In this document: piece after piece, positions 1-11,702 of the stretch | Layout of the letters: every line of letters starts with the position of its first letter | How positions within the stretch are numbered: the first letter of the stretch is position 1 | Source: a virus | DNA length: 13,526 nt | Reading direction: 5' to 3' (one strand) | Virus genome (UHGV): UHGV-1806156 | The notes under the pieces: model-generated | What the model was told of the DNA's origin: nothing | What the model saw: only the letters and a program-made list of their open reading frames with translations | Databases searched by the model: none | Program-made: the position numbers and the translations under genes

Positions 1-98
1 TAAGGGAAAAGCTTAACCCACAAATGAAAGCCTAAAGAGCATGAGCGACTCTTTAGGCAATCTGTGTGGGGAACATCGGAGCAGTATGTGAAGTATGA
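1..98. repeat. Left copy of a 98-bp direct repeat (same as 13429-13526)
   Basis: Positions 1-98 match 13429-13526 base for base except one T/C difference (position 54 vs 13482). The repeat runs to both window edges, so its full extent is unknown. Confidence 0.9.
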
Positions 99-437
99 GC
101 AGACTGTGATGATGTGACTTATATCTATGCGTATAACAGCCTCCGCTGTTTACGCTCTTTGTGTGGGTCCGGCGAATGCGTCAGCATGAGGCCCACAATG
201 TGGACCGCTGCCGAAAGCTTGCCAGCGCCGGAAGGAGGCAGCAAAGAGTCTCCCGCGCGCATGTGTGGGCGTATACGTAAGATATACATTCATAAATCCA
301 ATTCTAGGCCCATAAATGGCCTTCTGGCTGCATTAACTAGTGTGAGTAGTGCAATTGCATTACCTGACCTCTAAATCGCGTTAGAATTGATTTTAGAGCG
401 CCTAAGGCAAAAAGTGCTCTCCCTCCCTTGTGGGCCA

Positions 438-467
438 TTGACAATCTTATTGCATAAATGCTATAAG
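438..467 (+). promoter_or_regulatory. Sigma70-like promoter candidate (-35 TTGACA 438-443, 18-bp spacer, -10 TATAAG 462-467)
   Basis: Hexamers read directly; one of five ATTGACAAT-type sites in 437-765. Confidence 0.3.
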
Positions 468-566
468 TGATTTTGGTTTTGACACGGTAGGGGCCATTAA
501 TAATGCTTACCCCTTTGCTGTGGACTTGCTTGTACATATAGCATACCTAAATGATAATAATTCTCA

Positions 567-595
567 TTGACAATTGGTTGACAATATGATAAGAT
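567..595 (+). promoter_or_regulatory. Sigma70-like promoter candidate (-35 TTGACA 567-572, 17-bp spacer, -10 TAAGAT 590-595)
   Basis: Hexamers read directly; a second TTGACA at 578-583 overlaps it. Sits upstream of the sORF at 631. Confidence 0.3.
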
Positions 596-630
596 TATAA
601 ATAGGGGGAGAAACAGATCCGGAGGTCAAT

Positions 631-780
631 GTGGAAATTACTGATGCAATAGCGATCATCAACCTGGCTGTACTGTGGTGCGGTGTTGCCTACATAGCCG
701 GAGTGACTGCAATCGACAATCTTGAAGAAAAAATGATAGATAAATACAAAAAGATTGTTGACAATTTGACGAATGTCTGA
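631..780 (+). CDS. Small ORF, 49 aa, GTG start, predicted single transmembrane helix (VEITDAIAIINLAVLWCGVAYIAGVTAIDNLEEKMIDKYKKIVDNLTNV)
   Basis: GGAGG at 621-625 sits 5 nt before GTG 631, stop TGA at 778-780. Hydrophobic N-terminal stretch. Below the 60-aa cutoff of the ORF track. Confidence 0.3.
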   Translation: MEITDAIAIINLAVLWCGVAYIAGVTAIDNLEEKMIDKYKKIVDNLTNV

Positions 781-786
781 TAAAAT
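758..786 (+). promoter_or_regulatory. Sigma70-like promoter candidate (-35 TTGACA 758-763, 17-bp spacer, -10 TAAAAT 781-786), likely driving the operon starting at 913
   Basis: Near-consensus hexamers with 17-bp spacing, about 125 bp upstream of ATG 913. Confidence 0.45.
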
Positions 787-912
787 ATAAAGCATAGGGT
801 AATTCTCATCATAGTGAATTTCCTTTAGTAGACTGGCGGGGGCTTGTCTTAAGTTCCCGTTTCTTTTTAATCATATATCGCACAGGTTAGTGAGCTGACA
901 GGAGATTGAATC

Positions 913-1128
913 ATGGCTAAAACCGGACCGATAAGCCAGCTGGTAAACTGGACTACTGACGAAATCGTCGAGAACGTGCTTAAAGGTAACTTTCGAAAAA
1001 CTTCCGTTTATGCATTTATTCGTAAACACAAAGGAGAATATCCACACATTGAAGCGGCAATTTTAGAACTGAATCGTCTCCGCCTTGAGCGTGAGCTGGC
1101 TAAATACACCAACAACATTAATAAATAA
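913..1128 (+). CDS. Hypothetical small protein, 71 aa
   Basis: ORF with AGGAGA RBS 7 nt upstream of ATG 913; first gene after a long non-coding region. No recognisable family. Confidence 0.55.
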   Translation: MAKTGPISQLVNWTTDEIVENVLKGNFRKTSVYAFIRKHKGEYPHIEAAILELNRLRLERELAKYTNNINK

Positions 1129-1141
1129 CTGTGGGGGAACT

Positions 1142-2038
1142 ATGGCAAGTAATTACGGGGAGGTTTTTAATCCCCATTTCGAACGCCTCATTCAGTATAC
1201 TTTTGATAAACCAGTTGCAACAACAATTGCTAATAAAAAGACTGGAAAAACAAAAGAAAGATTTAAGTTAGACCTGACGGAGGTTACAATTTATGGAAAA
1301 ATGGCAGGTTTTCATTTAAACGGGCAAGAAATATTTATCTCAGAGCAGACCTTAGCAAAAATATGTGGAGTGAGCGATAGAAAAATCCGTGATTCGATTA
1401 AATCTCTAGAAAATGCCGGGCTTATTTCTAAAGATAATCGGAAAGGCATGTCTAATATTTACAAACTACTAATTACTCCTTCACAGGTTTGCAAAATGTG
1501 TGACGCTCAAGGAATACAACCTATGAGCAATGCAGGTGGTGAAGATAAACAGCCTCAGGAAGCCCCAAAACAAGCCGCACAGCAAGCTAAAAAGGCTAAA
1601 GTAGTGCAATTGCCTACCCAAGACACTAAAGCGCCTCAAATTAACGCTGTTAGTGACAAGCCACGCCGGGGCCGTCCTGTGAAAGATGTAACCGATGGAG
1701 GGTGGATCGCCCTGGGTGAGAGTGAGGCTAAAGGCATAATGCGATCACTGTGGGAAAGCAAATACAAAGATTTAAACAAACGTCGCCCGATCCTTTTGTC
1801 AAAGATTCAGGAGGATTTTTACACCACAGAAGAGGTAAGCCGACATAAAGGGAAAATAGAGGGTGAAATCTGGAAACCGGAAGAATACTGGCATTTAACC
1901 AGACCTGTGTTTATTTTTGCAAATAAGCTTATTGGGATGGGATTTGAAATATTGTTAGATAAAACCTGCGGAGATTATCCCGAAATATTGTGGAGAAATG
2001 TTAGAAAAAATAAAAAAGGCATTTTAGAGTTTAAATAA
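1142..2038 (+). CDS. Putative replication initiator-like protein with winged helix-turn-helix, 298 aa
   Basis: ATG at 1142 preceded by GGGGGA RBS, right after the stop of the 913 ORF; the track's 1085 start is an upstream in-frame extension. The segment FISEQTLAKICGVSDRKIRDSIKSLENAGLISKDNRKG resembles the wHTH of phage and plasmid replication initiators. Function from motif recognition only. Confidence 0.45.
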   Translation: MASNYGEVFNPHFERLIQYTFDKPVATTIANKKTGKTKERFKLDLTEVTIYGKMAGFHLNGQEIFISEQTLAKICGVSDRKIRDSIKSLENAGLISKDNRKGMSNIYKLLITPSQVCKMCDAQGIQPMSNAGGEDKQPQEAPKQAAQQAKKAKVVQLPTQDTKAPQINAVSDKPRRGRPVKDVTDGGWIALGESEAKGIMRSLWESKYKDLNKRRPILLSKIQEDFYTTEEVSRHKGKIEGEIWKPEEYWHLTRPVFIFANKLIGMGFEILLDKTCGDYPEILWRNVRKNKKGILEFK

Positions 2039-2085
2039 AAACACTGATAATCTTATTTTTTACAGTATTCTAAAGGAAATTTAAA

Positions 2086-2232
2086 ATGTATGGCGATTTT
2101 GATTATTACCTGGAAAAGGAAAAATATTTTGAAGATGAACTATCACAACATTTTTCATATTGGGAAGAATATTGTGGTTGGTTAGCTGAAGATCCAGCAG
2201 ATGAAGAAAACGATTCTGACATCCCTTATTGA
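2086..2232 (+). CDS. Small acidic ORF, 48 aa (MYGDFDYYLEKEKYFEDELSQHFSYWEEYCGWLAEDPADEENDSDIPY)
   Basis: ATG 2086 with AAGGAAA RBS about 6 nt upstream, stop TGA 2230-2232. Strongly acidic and aromatic-rich. Below the ORF-track cutoff. Confidence 0.35.
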   Translation: MYGDFDYYLEKEKYFEDELSQHFSYWEEYCGWLAEDPADEENDSDIPY

Positions 2233-2316
2233 TATCCCCAAATAAACTAAATAAATAAACTAAGCACTAGAACTAGATTGATTGCCCTGATCTTTTAAAC
2301 GTTCGGAGAATTAATC

Positions 2317-2805
2317 ATGTTCAAATCTAATCTTTCTGATTCTCAATTCGAAAAACTGGTAGCACTGCAGAAATATCTTCCCAGTGATGATCAACCAACA
2401 CGACAGGCTAAACACTTATTAGTCGAGGGCTTTACCCCTGAATTCGTGGCGGAATATACAGGCGTTAAACTTGATAAAGTCCAAAAACTATATAATGAGT
2501 CCTGGAATCCACGGTGTCGAGTTCCCCTCAGTGTCTATAACGACATAGATAGAGATAAAAATGTCTTCGAAGATCGCCGCCGCAAATCTCTTTTAATGTG
2601 GAATTGTGGGATGAATATTGAAGAGATAGCAAAAGAATTAAAAGTAACCTGCTTTCATATATGGGGCTTGTTGAGTGAAATCCTGCCACGTAAGGAGCTT
2701 AATCAACGTTTGCCTAAGCCCGGTAGTCGTGCTTATCGCGAATTTATATTCATCTACCGCCGCCATAGAAATAAAGTCCAGAAAGCAATGGCCCAGAAAG
2801 CTTGA
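2317..2805 (+). CDS. Putative DNA-binding regulator with two HTH-like segments, 162 aa
   Basis: GGAGA RBS before ATG 2317. Two segments with HTH character: GFTPEFVAEYTGVKLDKVQKL and GMNIEEIAKELKVTCFHIWGLL. Confidence 0.5.
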   Translation: MFKSNLSDSQFEKLVALQKYLPSDDQPTRQAKHLLVEGFTPEFVAEYTGVKLDKVQKLYNESWNPRCRVPLSVYNDIDRDKNVFEDRRRKSLLMWNCGMNIEEIAKELKVTCFHIWGLLSEILPRKELNQRLPKPGSRAYREFIFIYRRHRNKVQKAMAQKA

Positions 2806-2878
2806 GTTTTATCTCTTCGATTTATTTATTTTCGACTCACTTTAACCCCTTCCGGGGCTCTAATTTAAGGAATTCCAA

Positions 2879-3322
2879 ATGTCTCAAATCGCTAAATTAT
2901 TATCCCAGGTTATCAAAGCTATCGACGCTGAAGATTCAAAAGTTCGCCAGGATCTTTTAGATGGCAAGTTTACCAACACCCTGGCATTTACCCGTGACAA
3001 AGAGCACTTCTTAAAACACAGGCATCACGCTTTTCCTGAATGCAAGTCCGCTAATGGTGATGTTTTCTATGTCGATTTGGTGGTTATGGCATGTAGGCTG
3101 TGGATGATTCAGGACCTTATGCGCCAACACGGTGATGATCCTCTTATCAGCATGTGGAACAGCGCCCAGGATGGCTTTGTGATTGCTGCCTTATCCAAAT
3201 CAATGATTGAGGCAGAAGGGGCAAGCCTTCAGAACATGGCAGATCTCTTTGAAATAAGCGTAGGAATGATGCAGACCATGCTCCAAGCTGTCAAACCTCT
3301 CAAACTGGTTAATCTTGATTAA
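2879..3322 (+). CDS. Hypothetical protein, 147 aa
   Basis: AAGGA RBS before ATG 2879; no recognisable family. Confidence 0.55.
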   Translation: MSQIAKLLSQVIKAIDAEDSKVRQDLLDGKFTNTLAFTRDKEHFLKHRHHAFPECKSANGDVFYVDLVVMACRLWMIQDLMRQHGDDPLISMWNSAQDGFVIAALSKSMIEAEGASLQNMADLFEISVGMMQTMLQAVKPLKLVNLD

Positions 3323-3382
3323 GCTATTGATAAATAAGCACTCCCCATTTTTTGGGGGGTGCATCAATGAGAGGATATGCCT

Positions 3383-3766
3383 ATGAATATTGAAGAAATG
3401 ATAGTTGAATTCGAAGAGGGTGATTTCCTGGAAGAAGGGGAGTTTAGTTACTCCCATTTTAAACAGGCGTTATTTAGCAGCGATGATAAACCACACGTTA
3501 GTGATCTTAACGACGATGATTTATGTCGTTGGGTATGCACCCGCTTAAATGAAGATGGAAAGTATACAGGCCAAAACTTTCCAAATCTCTATTTCAAAGC
3601 ACAAACATTTGAGGAAGGGCAAAGAGTGAAAAACCTGGTCGATAAAATGCTGTCAGCCGGATATTTGCATAAAGAATTATTAAATCCTAAAGCTGAAAGC
3701 AAGCGCCATTATATTTTTGTGTGGACTATTGGCGATAAGTGTCCACTAAGACGCAAAGGCAAATGA
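3383..3766 (+). CDS. Acidic protein, 127 aa; possible tail assembly chaperone by position
   Basis: GAGAGGA (3369-3375) is 7 nt before ATG 3383; the track's ATG 3377 is too close to the RBS. Acidic N-terminus and position two genes upstream of the tape measure gene. Function is positional inference only. Confidence 0.4.
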   Translation: MNIEEMIVEFEEGDFLEEGEFSYSHFKQALFSSDDKPHVSDLNDDDLCRWVCTRLNEDGKYTGQNFPNLYFKAQTFEEGQRVKNLVDKMLSAGYLHKELLNPKAESKRHYIFVWTIGDKCPLRRKGK

Positions 3767-3767
3767 T

Positions 3768-4004
3768 ATGAATACCTACGAAAAGATTTATCAAAAACTG
3801 GTTAAGGACTCCGAAGACACGCCCGAAGGGGTGACAGTAGGTCACCTGCCAGAGGCAGCGAAAGAGGGGGCCACCATTATTAAAAGTGGCTCCCACACAG
3901 AAGGCCTCTCAATCGAAGAGCTGGCGGAGAAATATAATATTGATAAAGAGGCCCTGAAAAGGGCTATTTCATTATCAAAATCTTTAAGACAGGGCGAGGT
4001 ATAA
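3768..4004 (+). CDS. Hypothetical protein, 78 aa, translationally coupled between the acidic protein and the tape measure gene
   Basis: Starts 1 nt after the preceding stop and ends 1 nt before ATG 4006. Confidence 0.45.
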   Translation: MNTYEKIYQKLVKDSEDTPEGVTVGHLPEAAKEGATIIKSGSHTEGLSIEELAEKYNIDKEALKRAISLSKSLRQGEV

Positions 4005-4005
4005 A

Positions 4006-6153
4006 ATGGCAATGAAGGAAGTAGCCAGACTAACAAACGTTATTTACTGGGACTCTGATAAATCCTCCTGGCGAAAAGAAGTTAAACGGCTTGAGGATTA
4101 TAAAAAATCCTGGAAGAAAGCTACCGACGATATAGCTAAAGCTGATTTTAAATCTAATCAGGCTGTGCTCAGAACACAAAGAACACGCGCTAAGGTGGAA
4201 GAGCAGATAGCCAGAGCTCAGAGGAAACAACAGGAAGCACAGAAGAAACAACGTGCTCAGGCTGTCAGCCGTCTGACCGGGGGCAACAATGCCGAACTTA
4301 ACTCTATGCGCAAGTTCTACCAACAACAAGCCAGAGAAGCCGCCAGACAACAAAAACTGTTAGATCGTAGTGTTGGAGATGTTCAGCACAGAAAAGCACG
4401 TGTAGGGGCCAACAGTGCACGAATCAGCAGCATGTTTGATGGCTCCCTGGTTGCTCAGTTCCAGGGGCGCATTCAAAGAGTTAATGCTGATTATGCTAAA
4501 GGGGCTATAAACCTGCAGACCTATAATCAGAGGATGGCCCGACTCAGATCTGAAATGAAGATGGCAACAGCCGAAGCCGGAAAATTCCAGAGCAGACTAG
4601 ACAGAGCTGCGGCCGCAGGCTCCAGGCTGCATGACAACCTGGGGAAACTGAATTCCACACTGGGCAAGATAGCCATTGGCCTTACTGCCGCTGGCTGGGG
4701 TGTTCAGCGTGCTGTTAGTGGTGCTATGGGTAGCCTTGCAGATCGCAACAGTGCTTATTTCGGCTTAATGTCACAGAACAAGGATGATAAATCAAAAACT
4801 GATCAGCAGATGGCTTTTATCAAGAACACAGCCTACACCTACGGGATGGATCAGCGTGAGATGGAAGGCGGCTACATGCGCTTTGCTGCAGCTACCCCCA
4901 CCATGAAGGAATCTGATAAGCAGGCTCTCTTTGAGGCTATGGCTATTAAAGGCCGCTCAGTGGGTGCTACTGGCGAGCAACAGAACAGGGCGCTTGTTGC
5001 GGTCCAACAAATGGCTTCAAAAAATAAAGTCATGGCGGAGGAGCTGCGTGGGCAGCTGGCAGAAGCCTTTGCAGGCTCACAACAGGACTTCCAACAGGCC
5101 GCTATTGATGCCGGAATCATCAAAAATACCCAGGAATTCGATAAAGCCCTTAAAGATGGCAAAATCACCCTGGACAAGCTACTTCCTTCCCTAGTGAAAA
5201 TTTGGGGTGCTGCAAAAGAAACTAAAGCTTTTGCTGAATCCATGAAACAGCCAGAAGTAGCAATGCAGCGCATGAAAAACAGCTTTAACGAGCTGGCGAT
5301 TCAGTTTATGGGTGTTGTGGATCCTGCGGATGGCGTTATTAGCTTATCTGAATCTCTGATCTCCATCTTTGAAGACCTCACCACTGATATGGACGGCAGC
5401 GGGAGCGCGGCAAAACAGTTCGGTGAGGCAGTCGGGTCTGCCATGCGTGAGATCATGTATTGGGTAGGCTTCGCTAAGGGATATATTGAGGTCAAGGCTA
5501 AAGAGTTCGGCATGACCGGATCAGAGGTTGGCGAGCTTATCGGGAAACTGGTAGTCGGCTTAGCTGGTCTGAAAGTTATTACCACACTGCTTTCCCCTCT
5601 AACCGGATTTGTTTCACTTGTCACCCAACTGATTTCTCTGATAGGCAAGATTCCAGGTCTGGGCAATCTCGTTAAGGGTGCTGGCGGGGCAGTCGCTGGA
5701 AGCCCAACAACAGCATTAGCCGCTGGCAGTGCCGCAGGTGTGGGTGTTGGTGTCGCTGGCGCACTAGGCGCTAAGACGGTAGGTGAGAAGTTCAGAGGAT
5801 GGATGCAAAGCAAGGCTGATCAGTTCGGGGAGTGGGCTAAATCTAAAGGCCTGCTTAGCGATGAACAGGACGCTATGACCAAACCGGGGGCCTATAACCA
5901 TAGCTACATCAACAAGGGAGCTTCCTTTAATCCATATCCAACCATTAGCCCTTCACGTCCTACTCCTAGCACTGGTACGGCTATTCAGAATGGCGGATAT
6001 CAACCAGTCCAAGTAAATGTAGCCCCACAAGGTGAGATTTCCGGCAAATGGGAGATAACCATCGATGAGGGGGGAATTGCCAGGGTGATCCAGAAGGAAG
6101 TTAGCGATCAGTTGGATTGGAAAGCCACACAGGAATCTAACCAGCTTTTCTAA
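4006..6153 (+). CDS. Phage tail tape measure protein-like, 715 aa
   Basis: Long Q/R/K/A-rich helical N-terminal region, a central segment that reads like a tape-measure domain (AAATPTMKESDKQALFEAMAIKGRSVGATGEQQNRALVAVQQMASKNKVMAEELRGQLAEAF), and a Gly/Ala-rich hydrophobic block (LAGLKVITTLLSPLTGFVSLVTQLISLIGKIPGLGNLVKGAGGAVAG...). Recognised by eye, not by search. Confidence 0.6.
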   Translation: MAMKEVARLTNVIYWDSDKSSWRKEVKRLEDYKKSWKKATDDIAKADFKSNQAVLRTQRTRAKVEEQIARAQRKQQEAQKKQRAQAVSRLTGGNNAELNSMRKFYQQQAREAARQQKLLDRSVGDVQHRKARVGANSARISSMFDGSLVAQFQGRIQRVNADYAKGAINLQTYNQRMARLRSEMKMATAEAGKFQSRLDRAAAAGSRLHDNLGKLNSTLGKIAIGLTAAGWGVQRAVSGAMGSLADRNSAYFGLMSQNKDDKSKTDQQMAFIKNTAYTYGMDQREMEGGYMRFAAATPTMKESDKQALFEAMAIKGRSVGATGEQQNRALVAVQQMASKNKVMAEELRGQLAEAFAGSQQDFQQAAIDAGIIKNTQEFDKALKDGKITLDKLLPSLVKIWGAAKETKAFAESMKQPEVAMQRMKNSFNELAIQFMGVVDPADGVISLSESLISIFEDLTTDMDGSGSAAKQFGEAVGSAMREIMYWVGFAKGYIEVKAKEFGMTGSEVGELIGKLVVGLAGLKVITTLLSPLTGFVSLVTQLISLIGKIPGLGNLVKGAGGAVAGSPTTALAAGSAAGVGVGVAGALGAKTVGEKFRGWMQSKADQFGEWAKSKGLLSDEQDAMTKPGAYNHSYINKGASFNPYPTISPSRPTPSTGTAIQNGGYQPVQVNVAPQGEISGKWEITIDEGGIARVIQKEVSDQLDWKATQESNQLF

Positions 6154-6310: not shown

Positions 6311-6655
6311 TTGCCGGAAGGTAAGTCAACTCCGGCCTATAAACCTTAAAGCGACTATAAAATCGCCCCGCCAATTGTGATGATCCGACCTTTGAGGCGG
6401 GTCCGGTGCCCAGGGGGGTGCAGTGATGCACAAACCAGGCAACGATAAACAGGCTAACAGTGATAGCGGCGCTCTCTCAGCGCACTAAATCCTAACCAGT
6501 CCGGGAAAGAGGCTGGCTCTATCGACCGCTCATGCACGGGACAATGCATACCTGATAAAGGATTCTCACAAGGGACCAATCGCGAGAAAAAGAAGTGGAA
6601 AGGGGCTGATTTGTGGTGTATCACTACGGCCTCAAAAGAACACTATTGTCTTTTT

Positions 6656-7114
6656 TCAGCCTCTCCCAACATTTGACCAGTATTTGATTGCACCGATCAA
6701 ATCATCATAGTGGCGCATTGCATCATTGAAGCCTTTATAGCTTGCCCATTGTGGGGAAACCTTGTTATTGCTGAATTGCCCACTAATCAGGATAGTCTCC
6801 AGAATGTCGGCATATCGCTTACCAATACGCTTTCTGACGGCCTCAGAGCTCCCACCCTTTACGATTGCATTAATCAGGGCTTTTGTGTGTCTCAGGCTCT
6901 CATAGAGCATTGCAGCGTGGGCAGATTCCATAAAGGAGCGCTTAGGCAAATCACCCCACCCCTCAGAGTGGATAGCCGCCAGTGTGGCGTAATTCAGGCC
7001 GCTATAGTGCTTTCCGTCATCCCAGCCAACCGCTACACCTTCCATCTGTGAGAGCTCTTTATGCAGCTTATCCATCATGCGCTTGTCTATGGTGCAACGG
7101 ACTTTCGGACTCAT
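6656..7114 (-). CDS. HK97 gp10-like head-tail (neck) family protein, 152 aa
   Basis: Segment GVAVGWDDGKHYSGLNYATLAAIHSEGWGDLPKRSF fits the pattern I associate with the HK97 gp10 family. GGAG RBS upstream; ATGA overlap with the preceding gene. Confidence 0.45.
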   Translation of the reverse strand: MSPKVRCTIDKRMMDKLHKELSQMEGVAVGWDDGKHYSGLNYATLAAIHSEGWGDLPKRSFMESAHAAMLYESLRHTKALINAIVKGGSSEAVRKRIGKRYADILETILISGQFSNNKVSPQWASYKGFNDAMRHYDDLIGAIKYWSNVGRG

Positions 7115-7914
7115 TTGTTGATCTCCGTGATGTCATCAAGCAACATGTTGGCCTTATCAATCATCGTTTCGTGGAATTCATTCGACACAACAGACTTATC
7201 ACCTGCGGCAATCTTTCCAGCTGCCTCTCCCTGTGCATATTCCCCGCGATGCTTAGCCCTGGTAGATTTCGTAGCAGCATTGCCAGCGTTACTACCCTCT
7301 TTAGCACTGTTAACAGCACCCTTTTGCTGTGTTTTATTCACCTTCTTACTGTTAGTGAAAACTCCGGCATTTTCGACCATCTTCACCTTGAAGGTGCGGA
7401 ATTCTTCAAAGGTGCAATCGATAGTGATGCAGTCACCGGAGGAAGAGCTACGCTTAACTTCACATTTCGTCATGATGAAGTTCTCAAGGAGTCCGGCATC
7501 TTCACTCACCAGGCTAACCAGCTGGCGCTTGTCTCTCATTTCCATAAGTGCCTGAACAGCGGCAGCAGGGCGCATAGATTCACGGGGATTATCTGGATCA
7601 GTGTTCCGGTCGATGTAGTTCTCTTTCCGGATAATGTGAGGGGAAGAGGTAATAATACCCGTAAAGCTGACAGATTTATCTTTAATGACGGCATGGTCTG
7701 ACATGGTGGTGCCATCTTCTACTGCATAGCTCGACTTTTCGACAGGGAACGAATAACGAACATCAGAGATAGAGTCAAAGAAGATAGCCACATTATCGGT
7801 ATAGTTGAAGCCATCCATTATATTTTTGTTTTGTGAATATCCCCCACACATAACAGTGAATGCGGGAGATCTCGACTCAGCTTGTTTTGCAGCTGTCAGA
7901 GCATCACTAGCCAT
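7111..7914 (-). CDS. Hypothetical protein, 267 aa (start placed at the ATG at 7914)
   Basis: Minus ORF 7111..7941 begins at a GTG; the in-frame ATG at 7914 has GGAGG 10 nt upstream. Normal amino-acid composition, unlike the Cys/Ser/Leu-rich plus-strand ORFs it overlaps. Confidence 0.55.
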   Translation of the reverse strand: MASDALTAAKQAESRSPAFTVMCGGYSQNKNIMDGFNYTDNVAIFFDSISDVRYSFPVEKSSYAVEDGTTMSDHAVIKDKSVSFTGIITSSPHIIRKENYIDRNTDPDNPRESMRPAAAVQALMEMRDKRQLVSLVSEDAGLLENFIMTKCEVKRSSSSGDCITIDCTFEEFRTFKVKMVENAGVFTNSKKVNKTQQKGAVNSAKEGSNAGNAATKSTRAKHRGEYAQGEAAGKIAAGDKSVVSNEFHETMIDKANMLLDDITEINK

Positions 7915-8042
7915 AGTAAACATGCCTCCAAATTGGTCCACTTCATGGATTTGGCTAAAGCCAAACCTGCAAAAGATGCAGGCAAAATAGAACTTATCGT
8001 TGCCCTGCGTGAATTCTGATAAAAAGACAGGGCTATCTATCG

Positions 8043-8303
8043 TTATTTTGCAAAACGATTATGCGCATTCAGGGCTTTTTTGCGGTCCTGGGCTTGTTTG
8101 CGTGCAATAAAATGTTCGAAAGTCTCGGCCCAGGTGCATTTATTATATTCACGGTATTTATGCATAGCCTGGCGGCTAACGTCATAGCAGGCGGCAAATG
8201 TGGAGATACGCAGGAATTCCGGCAGATCCTCGTCATCGATATGGATAATATCAAAAGGCACGTCGTCACGGTCGCCGTATAAAACAATTTTCATAAAAGA
8301 CAC
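8043..8303 (-). CDS. Small HTH DNA-binding protein, 86 aa
   Basis: GAGGTG RBS upstream of ATG 8303. HTH-like segment LRISTFAACYDVSRQAMHKY. Role unknown. Confidence 0.5.
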   Translation of the reverse strand: MSFMKIVLYGDRDDVPFDIIHIDDEDLPEFLRISTFAACYDVSRQAMHKYREYNKCTWAETFEHFIARKQAQDRKKALNAHNRFAK

Positions 8304-8327: not shown

Positions 8328-8377
8328 CAAAAAAGGGAAGAGGGAAAGACCTATCCCCGATCTCTCACCTCTTCCCT
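8328..8377 (-). terminator. Hairpin terminator just downstream of the capsid gene (stem AGGGAAGAGG 8334-8343 / CCTCTTCCCT 8368-8377)
   Basis: 10-bp stem followed on the minus strand by a T run (plus-strand A 8328-8333), immediately after the capsid stop at 8384-8386. Confidence 0.45.
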
Positions 8378-8383
8378 TTGCTT

Positions 8384-9418
8384 TTATTTAGCCTTGGCAG
8401 CGGCGGCGGTGTTTTTAACACTCACTTTCACCACAACTTCAGGCATCATGTTCATGAAAGCATAAGAGGATTCAACGAAGATTTCGCGTTTGCCTCTGGA
8501 CTCTTCCATATACATGAAAGCTTCACGTGCAGCGCCGTTTGCCAGCTTCAGGTTGCGAGCGCAAGGGCCGAAAAATTGAGTATAAACGCCCACCATATCG
8601 CCTAACGCATGCGGCTGGAACTGTGGGACTAGATAAGCAGTATTCTCTGGCAGACTATCCATTTGCACCACACGCAGGGCTAAGCCCGGAATGCGGAAGG
8701 TCGGGAAGCCCGGCAGAATATCCTCAGGGAACATCAGACCTTTGTCGGTAATGTTCTGATTGCCGAACAACAGCACTTTACGGAGCAGTTCATCAGTCTG
8801 AATAGCGGTAAACAGTTCAGCACGGCAGAACAGGGTGAAACCACGCAGGGCACGAACGACACCACGCTGTTTAACCTTGCTCAGTGCAACCAGGTCCTGC
8901 AGCTGTTTAAGGATATCTTTAGCTAGATCCACTTCTGAAGTGGTTTGCTGTGCGCCCAGCAGTTCGCACACATTCAGTTCTTTACCCTTGGTGAGGATAA
9001 TTTTGTTCTCAAAGAGAGCAAGCTGGCGTGCTTCTTCGTGGGTCTGGCGTAAGCCTTCGCCAAGCTGAATAACACGACGAGCGGTTACAGACTCTAGATT
9101 CTCTTCGGAATCTTTGCCCGGAACACGGATACCCTGCCAGTCAGAAGGATAAATAGCACTTGATGCGGCAGTGAATGCCATATCACCCGTGCCCGTTTCA
9201 CGCTCATCTGCGGTAATGGTCGCCATCTGTTCACCGTAGCGCGGATACTGACCGAAAGCGGTTTGTTTCACCTGGCGAACTTTGTCATATTCAAATTTAA
9301 AGGTATTGCACAGAGCAGTAGTGTTGAAGATATCCATTGCAGAAATAATCATGTTATCCGGCGGGATATCTTTAATCAGACCACACAGATCGCGAACTTC
9401 GAATTCTTTCTTAGCCAT
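8384..9418 (-). CDS. Major capsid protein, lambda gpE family-like, 344 aa
   Basis: ATG at 9418 with AAGGAGG RBS 8 nt upstream; the track's extension to 9517 has no RBS. N-terminus FEVRDLCGLIKDIPPDN fits the L-x-G-x-[IV]-x-x-x-PP pattern seen in gpE-family capsids. Size (lambda gpE is 341 aa) and a small beta-rich gene directly upstream agree. Confidence 0.6.
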   Translation of the reverse strand: MAKKEFEVRDLCGLIKDIPPDNMIISAMDIFNTTALCNTFKFEYDKVRQVKQTAFGQYPRYGEQMATITADERETGTGDMAFTAASSAIYPSDWQGIRVPGKDSEENLESVTARRVIQLGEGLRQTHEEARQLALFENKIILTKGKELNVCELLGAQQTTSEVDLAKDILKQLQDLVALSKVKQRGVVRALRGFTLFCRAELFTAIQTDELLRKVLLFGNQNITDKGLMFPEDILPGFPTFRIPGLALRVVQMDSLPENTAYLVPQFQPHALGDMVGVYTQFFGPCARNLKLANGAAREAFMYMEESRGKREIFVESSYAFMNMMPEVVVKVSVKNTAAAAKAK

Positions 9419-9429
9419 TTTCAACCTCC

Positions 9430-9765
9430 TTATTGTGCAACACGCAAATCGCCATTGCTGGCAGCAACAACAGCGGCTAAGCCGTCTTTGTCCACATAGG
9501 CCGGATTGATGTAGCAACCTTTGTTCGCAACAACGATAAAGGAATCACCAACTTCAGCACGTTCTACAACCAGCAGCGGAGTTTTATCTGTGTGCGTTGC
9601 TTTAACGAAGGTCTCAACCTCGCCAGCCTCAGTCACCACAACAACAGTGCCAGCCGGAATCTCAGCCTTAACTTTGTTTTTAACTTCAACGTCGCGAATA
9701 CTAAATTGCTCATCTGCGGCGTATGAAATGATGTGTCCGCGTGTGCGGATAGTCATATCTCTCAT
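9430..9765 (-). CDS. Putative head decoration protein (lambda gpD-like), 111 aa
   Basis: AGGTGA RBS before ATG 9765. Small, beta-rich (Val/Thr/Ala/Gly), immediately upstream of the capsid gene as in lambda D-E. Assignment is positional and compositional. Confidence 0.4.
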   Translation of the reverse strand: MRDMTIRTRGHIISYAADEQFSIRDVEVKNKVKAEIPAGTVVVVTEAGEVETFVKATHTDKTPLLVVERAEVGDSFIVVANKGCYINPAYVDKDGLAAVVAASNGDLRVAQ

Positions 9766-10093
9766 TTGATCACCTGCGATTTAAATTAACTCCCCTCAAA
9801 GGGCTCAGGTATAACCTCTCAAACCACGACAGGCTCGGGCCGAAAAGTTATGCCGGAAATCTAAAGGGGGATTGATATAAGGAGAGGGAGATAGCCCCGC
9901 ACCGTCCAAGCGGGGGCTATTCCACATGGGGAAACCAACAACAGTTGGCTGATAGTTCACTGCATGGTTACAGGTTGCTAGAGAGCACTATCACGAAAGG
10001 CACTCCCCCGGATCAGTTCAGGCTGCGGTCACATCAGCGGGGAAATACCTTTCGGGATAGCTACCCACACAGAAAACCCGCAAAAGAAAACTG

Positions 10094-10102
10094 TGTGGAT
10101 AA
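10094..10102 (-). promoter_or_regulatory. DnaA box (TTATCCACA on the minus strand) inside an inverted repeat (CCACACAG 10065-10072 / CTGTGTGG 10091-10098)
   Basis: Exact 9-mer match to the DnaA box consensus, read directly. Confidence 0.35.
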
Positions 10103-10248
10103 CTAGCCCTGTAGGGAGAATAAGGAGAATTAATCGACCACTCTAAGATGATCATGGGTAGTGTTATTTATAAGGCGGCACCGCTACCTGGTCGCCTTTA
10201 CTTTGGAGGAAAATACGGCAAATCACCTTCGCTAAATGATTCACGGTA

Positions 10249-10268
10249 TACTGTATATTATATCAGTA
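10249..10268. promoter_or_regulatory. LexA (SOS) box-like palindrome TACTGTATATTATATCAGTA
   Basis: CTG-N10-CAG architecture with flanking TA and an AT-rich core, as in gammaproteobacterial LexA boxes. Lies in the large intergenic region between the capsid operon and the small-peptide operon. Confidence 0.45.
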
Positions 10269-10546
10269 TTTACTCACATTGTCAACACCCTGATTATATA
10301 AATTCTAATAATTAGCGTAGTAACGGTATTTTCAGACTGCTATCAATCCCATCAATACGTCATCTCATCGCATCTATCATAACTTTTTCATTCGTGATAG
10401 ATATCTTTTGATCAATATCAATGTTTTCCGGGGATTTGCCCGGCTATAGTTCGAATCAAGGAAGGGGAGCATTGATAGAGACACCCAAAGGGGTGACTGA
10501 AAGTCACCTGGCATAGCCAGTGAAAGCACCCAACCGAACAAACAAA

Positions 10547-10564
10547 TCAACTTCTCGCAAAAGG
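10547..10564 (+). promoter_or_regulatory. Conserved leader motif TCAACTTCTCGCAAAAGG, 26 nt upstream of ATG 10573
   Basis: Repeated with the same spacing upstream of ATG 11115 (11089-11107); a third variant sits in the hairpin loop at 6281-6296. Confidence 0.4.
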
Positions 10565-10572
10565 TGATAGTT

Positions 10573-10695
10573 ATGGGTATCAAGAACAGTGCCAGCGCAT
10601 GGCAAAAGGCCAGGTTTCATCACCCACACATTGTTAAGGCAATTGAGGTGGTTGGAGTTTTAGCCCTGATGTTAGCTCTGTGTGTGGAGGTGTGA
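10573..10695 (+). CDS. Small hydrophobic peptide, 40 aa (MGIKNSASAWQKARFHHPHIVKAIEVVGVLALMLALCVEV)
   Basis: AAGGTG RBS before ATG 10573; C-terminal hydrophobic helix. Below the ORF-track cutoff. Confidence 0.35.
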   Translation: MGIKNSASAWQKARFHHPHIVKAIEVVGVLALMLALCVEV

Positions 10696-11114: not shown

Positions 11115-11702
11115 ATGAACATTAAAACTATCATTGCAGCCCTCACCATTGCCTTTAGTGCCAACACCGCAGCTATTGATGTAGGGGCCGTAAAAGATGC
11201 ATCTTGTGCTGATAAACTGGCGGCACTTGATGCGGGATTCGATGCACCCCAGGGCTATCAAATGGGGCTATCTCTTAAAAATATTATTCTCCCCATGGAA
11301 TCTGGCGCTTATGTATACGGAGCGATAGGAAAACTGGAGAAGCCGGAAATTGACCTGCAGGGTGTGAGAGCGAAGATCACTAAAAGAAATGAAAGCCTTT
11401 GTGATGTAGCTGAAATAGCTTTCATGTCAGACGATGAAAAATCTATTTTAGTCTTTTGCAAAGATAGCGATGATAATGATCGCTTCTTTAAGATCACCCA
11501 CAACAGGCCAATCTCTTTCTACTCTAATGCTACTATGGGCGCGGGTATGCAGTGGCTGAAGAGAGCTAAATTAACTGAGATCGACATTGAAAAAGAGGCC
11601 AATGCAGGCAGTTATGGATTCTGGAAAGGCTGGACTAAATACACGTTCCAACAATGCGGCATCGATAGTCAGGCCTACGACAACGGATTTTGGTTTTTCT
11701 AA
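11115..11702 (+). CDS. Secreted or outer-membrane protein with N-terminal signal peptide, 195 aa
   Basis: N-terminus MNIKTIIAALTIAFSANTAA has the basic/hydrophobic/A-x-A shape of a Sec signal peptide. C-terminus ends in aromatics (GFWFF), as many outer-membrane beta-barrels do. No family recognised. Confidence 0.55.
   Translation: MNIKTIIAALTIAFSANTAAIDVGAVKDASCADKLAALDAGFDAPQGYQMGLSLKNIILPMESGAYVYGAIGKLEKPEIDLQGVRAKITKRNESLCDVAEIAFMSDDEKSILVFCKDSDDNDRFFKITHNRPISFYSNATMGAGMQWLKRAKLTEIDIEKEANAGSYGFWKGWTKYTFQQCGIDSQAYDNGFWFF

What the first reader, a model, noticed from the sequence alone, without database searches (positions are those of the whole stretch)
6656..8303. Minus-strand operon led by an HTH protein and ending in an HK97 gp10-like neck protein
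A neck-type protein with no adjacent portal or tail gene is odd. Along with the capsid and tape measure genes it suggests the element supplies interface components of the virion. The 267-aa protein in between is unrecognised and could be a helper-interference factor.
Basis: partly seen in the sequence, partly recalled or inferred. Interest (0 to 1): 0.45.

Follow-up and report, generated by a model that had tools for sequence, protein, structure and literature searches.

The report
Plasmid satellite's own phage-tail core genes
The three genes sit on a small E. coli plasmid that appears to parasitise large lytic rV5-type phages, and two of them encode the plasmid's own versions of inner tail parts (tube initiator and tail-completion protein), so it probably builds hybrid virions to spread.

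Summary
The three minus-strand genes are real and under purifying selection, and their order is kept in relatives that are about 50% identical.

- **The "unrecognised" 267-aa protein** is a tail tube initiator. It matches Pfam Dit_like and the solved phiTE tube initiator, and is about 50% identical to the rV5-type one.
- **The 152-aa protein** is about 45% identical to the rV5/phiTE gene lying between the adaptor and head-completion genes. PHROGs labels that family "tail completion or Neck1". It does not match HK97-gp10 (PF04883) by any sequence test.
- **The 83-aa protein** is HTH-like in a predicted model only.
- **Operon structure.** The three genes are the far end of a five-gene block (111-aa protein, capsid protein, terminator, then these three). 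The block faces a tape measure gene.

The window is a complete, roughly 13.4-kb circular E. coli plasmid. It has a replication gene but no integrase, portal, terminase, sheath or tube. It shares two short noncoding stretches (85-90% identity) with Vequintavirus genomes.

Best reading: a satellite-plasmid of lytic Vequintavirus-type phages that makes its own capsid shell and a hybrid tail with its own inner axis (tape measure, tube initiator, completion protein). This would parallel Vibrio PLE. Transfer itself is untested. I rate it a new variant of a known kind.

The parts
8043..8294 (-). 83-aa small protein (the ORF extends to GTG at 8303). Predicted beta-hairpin, then a helix-turn-helix-like pair, then a long C-terminal helix. 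Core gene of the plasmid family.
7111..7914 (-). 267-aa tail tube initiator homologue (Dit-like tube-fold domain). The ORF extends to GTG at 7941.
   Evidence: PF21821 Dit_like 7e-25 (88 bits, cut-off 24.2) and phrog_5197 4e-107. PDB 9cuy_K phiTE tube initiator 1.9e-34 and phi92 gp135 1e-7. About 50% identity over residues 17-221 to 113 Escherichia and many other Vequintavirinae-type phages; the gene is annotated 'tail tube initiator protein' in MaxTheCat. dN/dS 0.009-0.13.
6656..7114 (-). 152-aa tail-completion / Neck1-class protein. Its start overlaps the tube initiator stop (ATGA).
   Evidence: phrog_222 8e-29. 43% identity to MaxTheCat bas57_0011 and 49% to phiTE_219. No PF04883 or NCBIfam hit. 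AF2 pLDDT 88. No PDB fold match. BFVD matches to uncharacterised myovirus proteins, a 'putative neck protein' and 'virion morphogenesis protein' entries. dN/dS 0-0.13.
8330..8376 (-). Intrinsic terminator (long GC-rich hairpin plus T-run) between the capsid gene and the 83-aa gene.
   Evidence: Sequence. The 91-nt stretch holding the hairpin folds at -35.4 kcal/mol in all. The same layout follows the capsid gene of phage MaxTheCat.
7965..7983 (-). Terminator-like hairpin between the 83-aa gene and the tube initiator gene; possible attenuator.
   Evidence: Consensus scan and fold.
6563..6588 (-). Terminator-like hairpin after the 152-aa gene, marking the end of the block.
   Evidence: Consensus scan.
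8384..9418 (-). Major capsid protein (344 aa from ATG 9418).
   Evidence: phrog_29 3.6e-21. 24% identity to the Vequintavirus MCP. The 51%-identical relative in L004 matches PF03864 Phage_cap_E at 3e-15.
9430..9765 (-). 111-aa protein, first gene of the block. Function unknown; it sits where helper phages have the decoration gene.
   Evidence: Conserved at 40% in L004 and L009. No family or PDB match, and no similarity to the MaxTheCat decoration protein.
10257..10285 (-). Perfect sigma-70 consensus promoter (TTGACA-17-TATAAT with TG), the likely start of the five-gene minus-strand unit.
   Evidence: Consensus scan, 12 of 12 matches.
4006..6153 (+). 715-aa tape measure protein, convergent with the block.
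   Evidence: PF20155 TMP_3 7.6e-13 and phrog_5255 4.5e-184. 27% identity to the 778-aa MaxTheCat TMP. Fastest-evolving gene among sister plasmids.
1085..2038 (+). Replication initiator-like protein (winged HTH).
   Evidence: PF13730 HTH_36 2.5e-7; phrog_270 and phrog_391 replication initiation.
10475..10526 (+). 52-bp noncoding hairpin cluster shared with Vequintavirus intergenic DNA. A diverged second copy lies at 3813-3864.
   Evidence: blastn 88-90% identity to 39 phage records. Copies and variants. Pair counts.
197..259 (+). 63-bp noncoding stretch shared with Vequintavirus intergenic DNA.
   Evidence: blastn 85-87% identity to Vequintavirus records among the 120 that match window 1-4010. 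Intergenic in phage JEP1.

Best explanation
The region is the tail half of the structural module of a satellite-plasmid. This is a roughly 13.4-kb, non-integrating E. coli plasmid that cannot make a virion alone and most likely exploits lytic Vequintavirus-type (rV5-like) myoviruses.

**Proposed course of events (inferred).** During helper infection the minus-strand block is transcribed, and the terminator after the capsid gene lowers the dose of the downstream genes. It yields a satellite capsid protein, an 83-aa probable DNA-binding protein, a tube initiator and a tail completion protein. The facing gene yields a satellite tape measure protein.
- The tube initiator hexamer takes the helper's place on the helper baseplate hub.
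- The satellite tape measure sets a tail about 60 residues (roughly 9 nm) shorter.
- The completion protein finishes the head-proximal end and, as in SPP1, helps route DNA into the next cell.
- All other parts (portal, terminase, adaptor, head completion protein, terminator, sheath, tube, wedges, fibres) are stolen from the helper.

The result would be hybrid particles that carry the plasmid, and probably fewer helper virions.

**Shown:** gene identities, conservation, plasmid nature, kinship with Vequintavirinae proteins, and shared noncoding DNA.

**Inferred:** incorporation into tails, small capsids, packaging, transfer, interference, and any role of the 83-aa protein as regulator or packaging-specificity factor.
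For: 1. **Complete small plasmid.** There is a 98-bp terminal overlap. Near-identical 13.2-13.7-kb circular plasmids occur in 7 of 5426 complete E. coli genomes, all typed non-mobilizable. It has a replication gene, no integrase and no tRNA.
2. **Only a subset of virion genes.** These are MCP, TMP, tube initiator and a TCP-class protein.
3. **Nearest homologues are Vequintavirinae-type myovirus proteins.** Tube initiator about 50% (in Vequintavirus itself), the 152-aa protein 43-49% (45% in Vequintavirus, 49% in the Certrevirus group), TMP 27% and MCP 24%. PLE proteins that replace ICP1 counterparts show a similar spread of 20-41% (PMC12987554).
4. **The gene set and size are conserved.** The roughly 14-kb size and gene set are kept in a lineage about 50% identical (L009, 13,971 bp), under purifying selection.
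5. **Links to Vequintavirus genomes.** Two noncoding stretches are 85-90% identical to Vequintavirus intergenic DNA, while nothing else matches at DNA level. A 64%-identical homologue of the 83-aa protein sits in a 129-kb Vequintavirus metagenome contig.
6. **Shorter tape measure.** The satellite TMPs are 715 and 725 aa against 778 aa in the helper type.
7. **Tight linkage of the two tail genes.** The tube initiator and completion genes overlap by 4 nt (ATGA), here and in L009. In the phages the two genes lie about 7 kb apart.
8. **Experimental precedent.** PLE builds hybrid tails with its own TMP, chaperone and hub protein, giving tails 10 nm shorter (PMC12987554). Episomal satellites exist in Vibrio (PMC13230959).
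Against: - There is no experimental or virome evidence that the plasmid is ever packaged. No relative was found in IMG/VR or in GTDB representative genomes.
- No terminase, pac or cos function has been identified. The role of the shared noncoding elements is unknown, and their hairpin covariation is statistically weak.
- The MCP and TMP are only about 25% identical to Vequintavirus proteins, so the true helper may be an unsampled relative.
- How a foreign capsid protein would assemble on a helper portal without its own scaffold or protease is unexplained.
- No tail assembly chaperone was recognised.
- The TCP-class family has never been located in any solved virion, including phiTE and phi92 (PMC11784142). 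Its place in the model is therefore by analogy.
Confidence: 0.55

Rival explanations
1. Pure defence by decoy subunits. The plasmid is an ordinary vertically inherited plasmid. Its diverged copies of capsid, tape measure, tube initiator and completion proteins co-assemble with those of an infecting Vequintavirus and poison virion assembly. This protects the population without the plasmid being packaged.
For: - The proteins are close enough to helper proteins to co-assemble (about 45-50% for the two tail genes) yet diverged at the termini.
- A perfect host-type promoter would allow expression before infection.
- Defences that target tail assembly are known: Rta (PMC12987554), and by title and abstract only Tai (PMC11364771) and an assembly-inhibition defence (PMC10884400).
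- No packaging function was found.
Against: - The element keeps a narrow size of 13.2-14.3 kb and the same nine-gene core across lineages about 50% identical. That fits a capsid-size constraint better than a defence cassette.
- Near-identical copies occur in unrelated hosts and continents although the plasmid is non-mobilizable.
- Noncoding DNA shared with the phage suggests cis-acting use of helper functions.
- No PADLOC model matches convincingly.
- Defence and transfer are not exclusive; in PLE and SaPI they coexist.
Confidence: 0.2
2. Decaying remnant of a phage or phage-plasmid. The structural genes are leftovers with no present function, carried on a cryptic replicon.
For: - The gene set is incomplete, and several ORFs have no family.
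- One copy in the trimeric record p3RM10740 has fragmented genes.
Against: - Strong purifying selection acts on every structural gene (dN/dS 0-0.15 for the MCP, tube initiator, 152-aa and 83-aa genes).
- The same subset and order appear in lineages with saturated synonymous divergence.
- Reading frames are intact in independent plasmids.
Confidence: 0.05
3. The three genes form an autonomous unit whose first product, the 83-aa HTH-like protein, is the regulator or packaging-specificity factor that leads and controls it.
For: - Hairpins bracket the 83-aa gene on both sides.
- The protein is a conserved core gene, always placed between the capsid and tube initiator genes.
- The AF2 model shows a helix-turn-helix-like pair with the invariant motif VSRQA in the second helix.
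Against: - No promoter-like site lies between the capsid terminator and the 83-aa start, a gap of about 35 nt.
- A terminator after the capsid gene followed by read-through is also the layout in the helper-type phage.
Confidence: 0.2

Closest known systems
PLE of Vibrio cholerae: hybrid tail assembly on lytic myovirus ICP1 (Mathur, Boyd et al., Nature 2026, PMC12987554)
   Same: A satellite of a strictly lytic myovirus that carries its own tape measure protein plus partners from the inner or hub part of the tail. Identity to the helper's counterparts is low to moderate (20-41% in PLE; 24-50% here). The tape measure is shorter than the helper's (95 aa in PLE; about 60 aa here). That paper also reports predicted tmp genes in other putative satellites.
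   Different: PLE is an integrated chromosomal island with an integrase. It uses the helper's capsid protein, and it encodes TMP, a tail assembly chaperone and the baseplate hub BhuB. The element here is a plasmid with its own capsid protein. It encodes a tube initiator and a tail-completion-class protein instead, and no chaperone was recognised. PLE's hybrid tails are shown by TEM, western blot and mass spectrometry; nothing here is experimental.
Vibrio satellite-plasmids PISP and cf-PISP (Nat Commun 2026, PMC13230959)
   Same: Small (11-16 kb) circular episomes with plasmid replication functions and no integrase, carrying phage capsid genes. PISP has a PF03864-type capsid protein, the same family that the L004 relative matches here. 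They were proposed to spread in helper-derived particles.
   Different: PISP carries a protease, a small terminase and a MerR-like regulator, and both types lack tail genes. Those authors found them only in Vibrio. The element here has no protease or terminase, carries three tail genes, and is in E. coli.
Tail completion proteins (TCP / Neck1): HK97 gp10, SPP1 gp16.1, lambda gpZ, P2 gpS, Mu gpG
   Same: Similar size (112-255 aa). The PHROG functional label is the same. The AF2 model is helix-rich with a few short strands, and published AF2 models of TCPs show two long helices and a small sheet (PMC11784142). The family is absent from solved neck structures, as are the phiTE and phi92 homologues of the 152-aa protein.
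   Different: No sequence-level match to PF04883 or TIGR01725. In the helper-type phages the gene lies between the adaptor and head-completion genes, not just before the tail terminator as in siphoviruses.
SaPIbov5 Ccm, a capsid-protein homologue that redirects helper capsid size (PMC8569155; title and abstract only)
   Same: A satellite-encoded homologue of the helper's major capsid protein.
   Different: Ccm belongs to a chromosomal island of a temperate siphovirus, and no tail genes are involved. Whether the capsid protein here co-assembles with the helper's or replaces it is unknown.

Membership tests
HK97 gp10-like (Pfam PF04883 / NCBIfam TIGR01725) | Significant match to the family HMM | tested here: not met
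   No PF04883 hit at E<=0.1 for the 152-aa protein, nor at E<=1 for any of 17 family members. No NCBIfam hit at E<=1. As a positive control, HK97 gp10 itself hits PF04883 at 4.7e-12.
HK97 gp10-like (Pfam PF04883 / NCBIfam TIGR01725) | Profile-level homology to HK97 gp10 | tested here: not met
   hhalign of the 17-sequence family profile against HK97 gp10 gave probability 1.3%. HK97 gp10 is in phrog_5 and the 152-aa family is in phrog_222.
Tail completion protein / Neck1 class (functional class of Lopes 2014, Auzat 2024, Linares 2024) | Membership of a phage protein family annotated as TCP/Ne1 | tested here: met
   phrog_222 'tail completion or Neck1 protein' at 7.9e-29. The phiTE and MaxTheCat homologues score 4.7e-44 and 2.4e-41. 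The PHROG name is an annotation, not a functional test.
Tail completion protein / Neck1 class (functional class of Lopes 2014, Auzat 2024, Linares 2024) | [quoted passage not shown] | tested here: inconclusive
   The AF2 model (pLDDT 88) has helices 61-85 and 90-111 and short strands. BFVD Foldseek hits include a 'putative neck protein' (2.6e-4) and 'virion morphogenesis protein' entries (2.6e-3 and 6.8e-3, with high rmsd). No direct superposition on gp10, gpS or gp16.1 models could be run.
Tail completion protein / Neck1 class (functional class of Lopes 2014, Auzat 2024, Linares 2024) | Gene just upstream of the tail terminator and tube genes (rule for siphoviruses; lost in P2 and Mu) | tested here: not met
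   In phiTE the homologue (phiTE_219) lies between the adaptor (218 = 9cc7_D) and head completion (220 = 9cc7_E) genes, with the terminator (221) after that. On the plasmid it follows the tube initiator gene.
Tail tube initiator (Dit_like, PF21821) | Match above Pfam's gathering score | tested here: met
   88 bits against a cut-off of 24.2, covering residues 55-190 and profile positions 1-125 of 127.
Tail tube initiator (Dit_like, PF21821) | Homology to a protein seen as the tube initiator ring in a solved virion | tested here: met
   phiTE tube initiator 9cuy_K at 1.9e-34 over residues 19-237, and phi92 gp135 at 9.6e-8. Their roles are described in PMC11972413 and PMC13450770.
Helix-turn-helix DNA-binding protein (83-aa product) | Match to an HTH family, or a clear fold match to a DNA-binding domain | tested here: inconclusive
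Phage satellite | Carries some but not all virion and packaging genes | tested here: met
   MCP, TMP, tube initiator and a TCP-class gene are present. No portal, terminase, protease, sheath, tube, wedge or fibre gene appears among the ORFs of at least 50 aa.
Phage satellite | Packaged and transferred only with a helper phage | not testable with these tools
No relative was found in IMG/VR. Indirect links to Vequintavirus come from protein kinship, two shared noncoding stretches and one shared accessory gene.
Satellite-plasmid (PISP / cf-PISP sense) | Circular extrachromosomal replicon with a replication gene and no integrase | tested here: met
   Complete circular plasmid records, a terminal overlap in the window, a replication-initiator-like protein, and no integrase-like ORF.
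Satellite-plasmid (PISP / cf-PISP sense) | PISP gene set: capsid protein E plus head protease, small terminase and MerR-like regulator, with no tail genes | tested here: not met
   No protease or terminase was found. Three tail genes are present.
PLE-type hybrid-tail satellite | Own TMP plus a tail assembly chaperone and baseplate hub protein; integrated island | tested here: not met
   A TMP is present. No chaperone was recognised: the ORFs upstream of the TMP gene match no chaperone PHROG and do not match the MaxTheCat locus that holds its chaperone (phrog_3840). The baseplate partner is a tube initiator, not a hub protein. The element is a plasmid, not an island.

The most novel reading that the evidence does not exclude
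An E. coli satellite-plasmid that parasitises strictly lytic rV5-type myoviruses and replaces the whole inner axis of the helper tail (tape measure, tube initiator and tail completion protein) as well as the capsid shell. Inheriting the completion protein together with the tape measure and tube initiator, with the latter two genes overlapping, would be the first genetic pointer that this never-localised protein class works with the tail core rather than as a neck ring.
Probability: 0.35. Interest if true: 0.8.

Novelty: new variant of a known kind. Interest (0 to 1): 0.62.

Why it matters
- **A gap in known satellites.** Satellites of lytic phages are known in detail only for Vibrio PLE and ICP1. 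Episomal satellites and satellite-encoded tail genes were reported only in 2026. No paper in the library links a satellite to Vequintavirinae.
- **A tractable system.** An E. coli system with culturable helper candidates (the BASEL Vequintaviruses) and solved relatives (phiTE, phi92) would let hybrid-tail assembly be tested easily.
- **A handle on an unplaced protein class.** Tail completion proteins are required for infectivity but have never been seen in a virion structure. This element offers a natural experiment on what they pair with.
- **Practical relevance.** rV5-type phages are used against pathogenic E. coli, and such plasmids could blunt them or be spread by them.

Tried and rejected
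**Searches that found nothing**
- Rfam (gathering thresholds on the whole window, E-value mode on 10380-10620) and tRNA scans.
- Megablast of the window against phages.
- PDB sequence and profile searches for the 152-aa family. Only low-complexity, repeat-protein noise came back.
- Foldseek of the 152-aa model against the PDB; best E about 1.
- tblastn of the 83-aa protein against 50,697 phage records.
- Scans of GTDB genomes and IMG/VR with the satellite capsid profile. The metagenome scan gave three close relatives only.
- PADLOC gave no convincing defence model.

**Ideas tested and dropped**
- The 111-aa protein as a decoration protein: no BLAST, hhalign or PDB-profile support.
- The shared 52-bp stretch as coding sequence: rejected, because a 2-nt loop indel in one phage copy breaks the reading frame while keeping the hairpin.
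- A tailocin or PLTS-type reading: rejected, as there is no sheath or tube gene.
- An integrated island: rejected, as all complete records are plasmids.
Full report
**1. The observation**

Three minus-strand ORFs lie at 8043-8303 (86 aa), 7111-7941 (276 aa) and 6656-7114 (152 aa).

The sequence favours later starts for two of them. ATG 8294, preceded by GAGGTG, gives 83 aa. ATG 7914, preceded by GGAGG, gives 267 aa. The 152-aa start overlaps the stop of the 267-aa gene (ATGA). RefSeq annotates the same lengths on sister plasmids.

The genes are real. Against sister elements dN/dS is 0-0.13, with dS 0.02-0.24. Two lineages only 37-57% identical at protein level keep the same order: small protein, capsid protein, small protein, Dit_like protein, 150-aa protein. 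In both, this block faces a tape measure gene.

**2. What each gene is**

*The 267-aa protein* is a tail tube initiator homologue.
- Pfam Dit_like scores 88 bits against a cut-off of 24.2.
- The solved phiTE tube initiator 9cuy_K matches at 1.9e-34, and phi92 gp135 at 1e-7.
- It is about 50% identical over residues 17-221 to the gene that BASEL phage MaxTheCat annotates as "tail tube initiator protein", which lies directly after that phage's tape measure gene.
- In phiTE and phi92 this protein forms the six-fold ring on which the tube polymerises. It touches the hub, sheath initiator, spacer and wedge.

*The 152-aa protein* is 43% identical to MaxTheCat bas57_0011 and 49% identical to phiTE_219.
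- It falls in phrog_222, "tail completion or Neck1 protein", at 8e-29.
- It does not match PF04883 or any NCBIfam model. Neither do 16 relatives. A family profile shows no similarity to HK97 gp10, which is in phrog_5.
- A confident AF2 model (pLDDT 88) has no PDB match. In BFVD it matches uncharacterised myovirus proteins, a "putative neck protein" and two "virion morphogenesis protein" entries.
[quoted passage not shown] In phi92 the chains that match these three proteins are gp126, gp128 and gp129, and the phi92 paper never mentions gp127. I did not confirm directly that gp127 is the phi92 homologue.
- This fits the literature on tail completion proteins. They are present in tails and needed for infectivity, but have not been located in any neck or tail structure; only T5 p143 was tentatively placed, at the tail tip, and its membership of the family is questioned (PMC11784142). 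In SPP1 the protein helps build the tail surface that binds the connector and routes DNA into the cytoplasm (PMC11099176).

*The 83-aa protein* has no family.
- Its AF2 model (pLDDT 83) shows a beta-hairpin, two short helices four residues apart that carry the invariant motif VSRQA, and a long C-terminal helix.
- Relatives occur only in sister elements, apart from one Vequintavirus lineage seen in three metagenome contigs: a 64%-identical copy lies among early genes on the longest, a 129-kb contig. None of 50,697 phage records has one.

**3. Operon structure**
- The only consensus promoter on this strand is at 10285-10257 (12 of 12 positions plus TG). It lies upstream of the 111-aa and capsid genes.
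- A long hairpin with a T-run follows the capsid gene and ends about 35 nt before the 83-aa start. Weaker hairpins follow the 83-aa and 152-aa genes.
- The helper-type phage has the same terminator-after-capsid design.
- The three genes are therefore best read as the attenuated distal part of a five-gene unit, not as an operon led by the small protein. This remains an inference.

**4. Context**
- The window carries a 98-bp terminal overlap, so it is a complete circle of about 13.43 kb.
- Near-identical 13.2-13.7-kb circular plasmids occur in 7 of 5426 complete E. coli genomes, from pigs, cattle, chickens and people in several countries. One 39.6-kb record is a trimer. All are typed non-mobilizable.
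- The plasmid has a replication-initiator-like gene, a 715-aa tape measure gene and a capsid gene. It has no integrase, portal, terminase, protease, sheath, tube or wedge gene.
- Its capsid and tape measure proteins are about 25% identical to those of Vequintavirus.
- Nothing matches phage DNA at megablast level. Two noncoding stretches, however, are 85-90% identical to intergenic DNA of dozens of Vequintaviruses. These are window 10475-10526 and 197-259. The first has a diverged second copy at 3813-3864.

**5. Mechanism**

The best-supported reading is a satellite-plasmid of lytic Vequintavirus-type myoviruses. It would supply its own capsid shell and the inner axis of the tail (tape measure, tube initiator, completion protein) and take everything else from the helper.

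The closest tested system is Vibrio PLE. It replaces ICP1's tape measure, chaperone and hub protein with its own versions (20-41% identical) and makes tails 10 nm shorter (PMC12987554). Here the tape measure is about 60 residues shorter than the helper type (715 and 725 aa against 778 aa), which predicts a tail roughly 9 nm shorter.

Episomal satellites have been described in Vibrio (PMC13230959).

Packaging, transfer, interference and the role of the 83-aa protein are all inferred. The main rival is a pure decoy defence. A decaying remnant is disfavoured by the selection data.

**6. Novelty**

No paper in the library links a satellite to Vequintavirinae. Satellite-encoded tube initiator and completion proteins were not among the PLE genes reported. 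I rate this a new variant of a known kind, with interest 0.62.

Noticed in passing
window 10475-10526, second copy at 3813-3864; phage copy at L011:12489-12540: A 52-bp noncoding stretch is 88-90% identical to intergenic DNA of 39 Vequintavirus records. It folds as three consecutive hairpins with conserved stems and variable loops. One pair shows a compensatory change and two changes are G-U compatible. Sister plasmids carry copy A, copy B or both. Covariation statistics are weak (1 covarying pair; 50 of 500 shuffles as high). No Rfam match.
   Followed up: partly
window 197-259; phage JEP1 at L016:3501-3563: A second noncoding stretch (63 bp) is 85-87% identical to intergenic DNA of Vequintaviruses (120 records match window 1-4010; every listed best match is this stretch). 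In JEP1 it lies in the 660-bp gap upstream of the tRNA cluster. Function unknown.
   Followed up: partly
L006:10001-10222 (129-kb metagenomic Vequintavirus contig); also L007 and L008: A 64%-identical homologue of the plasmid's 83-aa protein sits among early genes of one Vequintavirus lineage. It occupies a slot that is empty in phage APECc02, and it is absent from all 50,697 phage records. This points to gene exchange between the plasmid family and its presumed helper.
   Followed up: partly
window 4006-6153: The tape measure gene evolves much faster than its neighbours among sister plasmids (68-97% amino-acid identity, dN/dS up to 0.35, against at most 0.13 for the tube initiator, 152-aa and 83-aa genes). 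This would be expected if it were a target in a conflict with the helper.
   Followed up: no
L005:6965-7426 (phiTE_219) and the gene slot between phi92 gp126 and gp128: The helper-type homologue of the 152-aa protein has no chain in the deposited phiTE virion model, although its three flanking gene products do. The phi92 chains that match those three are gp126, gp128 and gp129, and gp127 is never mentioned in the phi92 paper. I did not confirm that gp127 is the phi92 homologue.
   Followed up: yes
L002 (NZ_CP043822.1, 39,610 bp): This plasmid record is three tandem copies of the 13-kb unit, and one copy has fragmented capsid and tube initiator genes. It could be a true multimer or a long-read assembly artefact.
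   Followed up: no
window 9766-10256: About 490 nt without a convincing ORF separate the perfect minus-strand promoter from the first gene of the block. This is an unusually long leader.
   Followed up: no
window 11115-11702: A 195-aa ORF has a hydrophobic N-terminus that looks like a signal peptide (judged by eye from the sequence). It has no match in Pfam, PHROGs or PADLOC and is not conserved in the diverged relative L009.
   Followed up: no
window 757-790: TTGACA-17-TGATAAAAT lies upstream of the replication gene cluster. It has the same form as the TTGACA-N17-TGnTAAAAT sites seen upstream of structural genes in phage MaxTheCat.
   Followed up: no
phage collection records MG0656xx: Many records named 'Campylobacter phage' (about 135-143 kb) match as Vequintavirus-type genomes in every search alongside Escherichia phages. 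The host label of these records looks doubtful.
   Followed up: no
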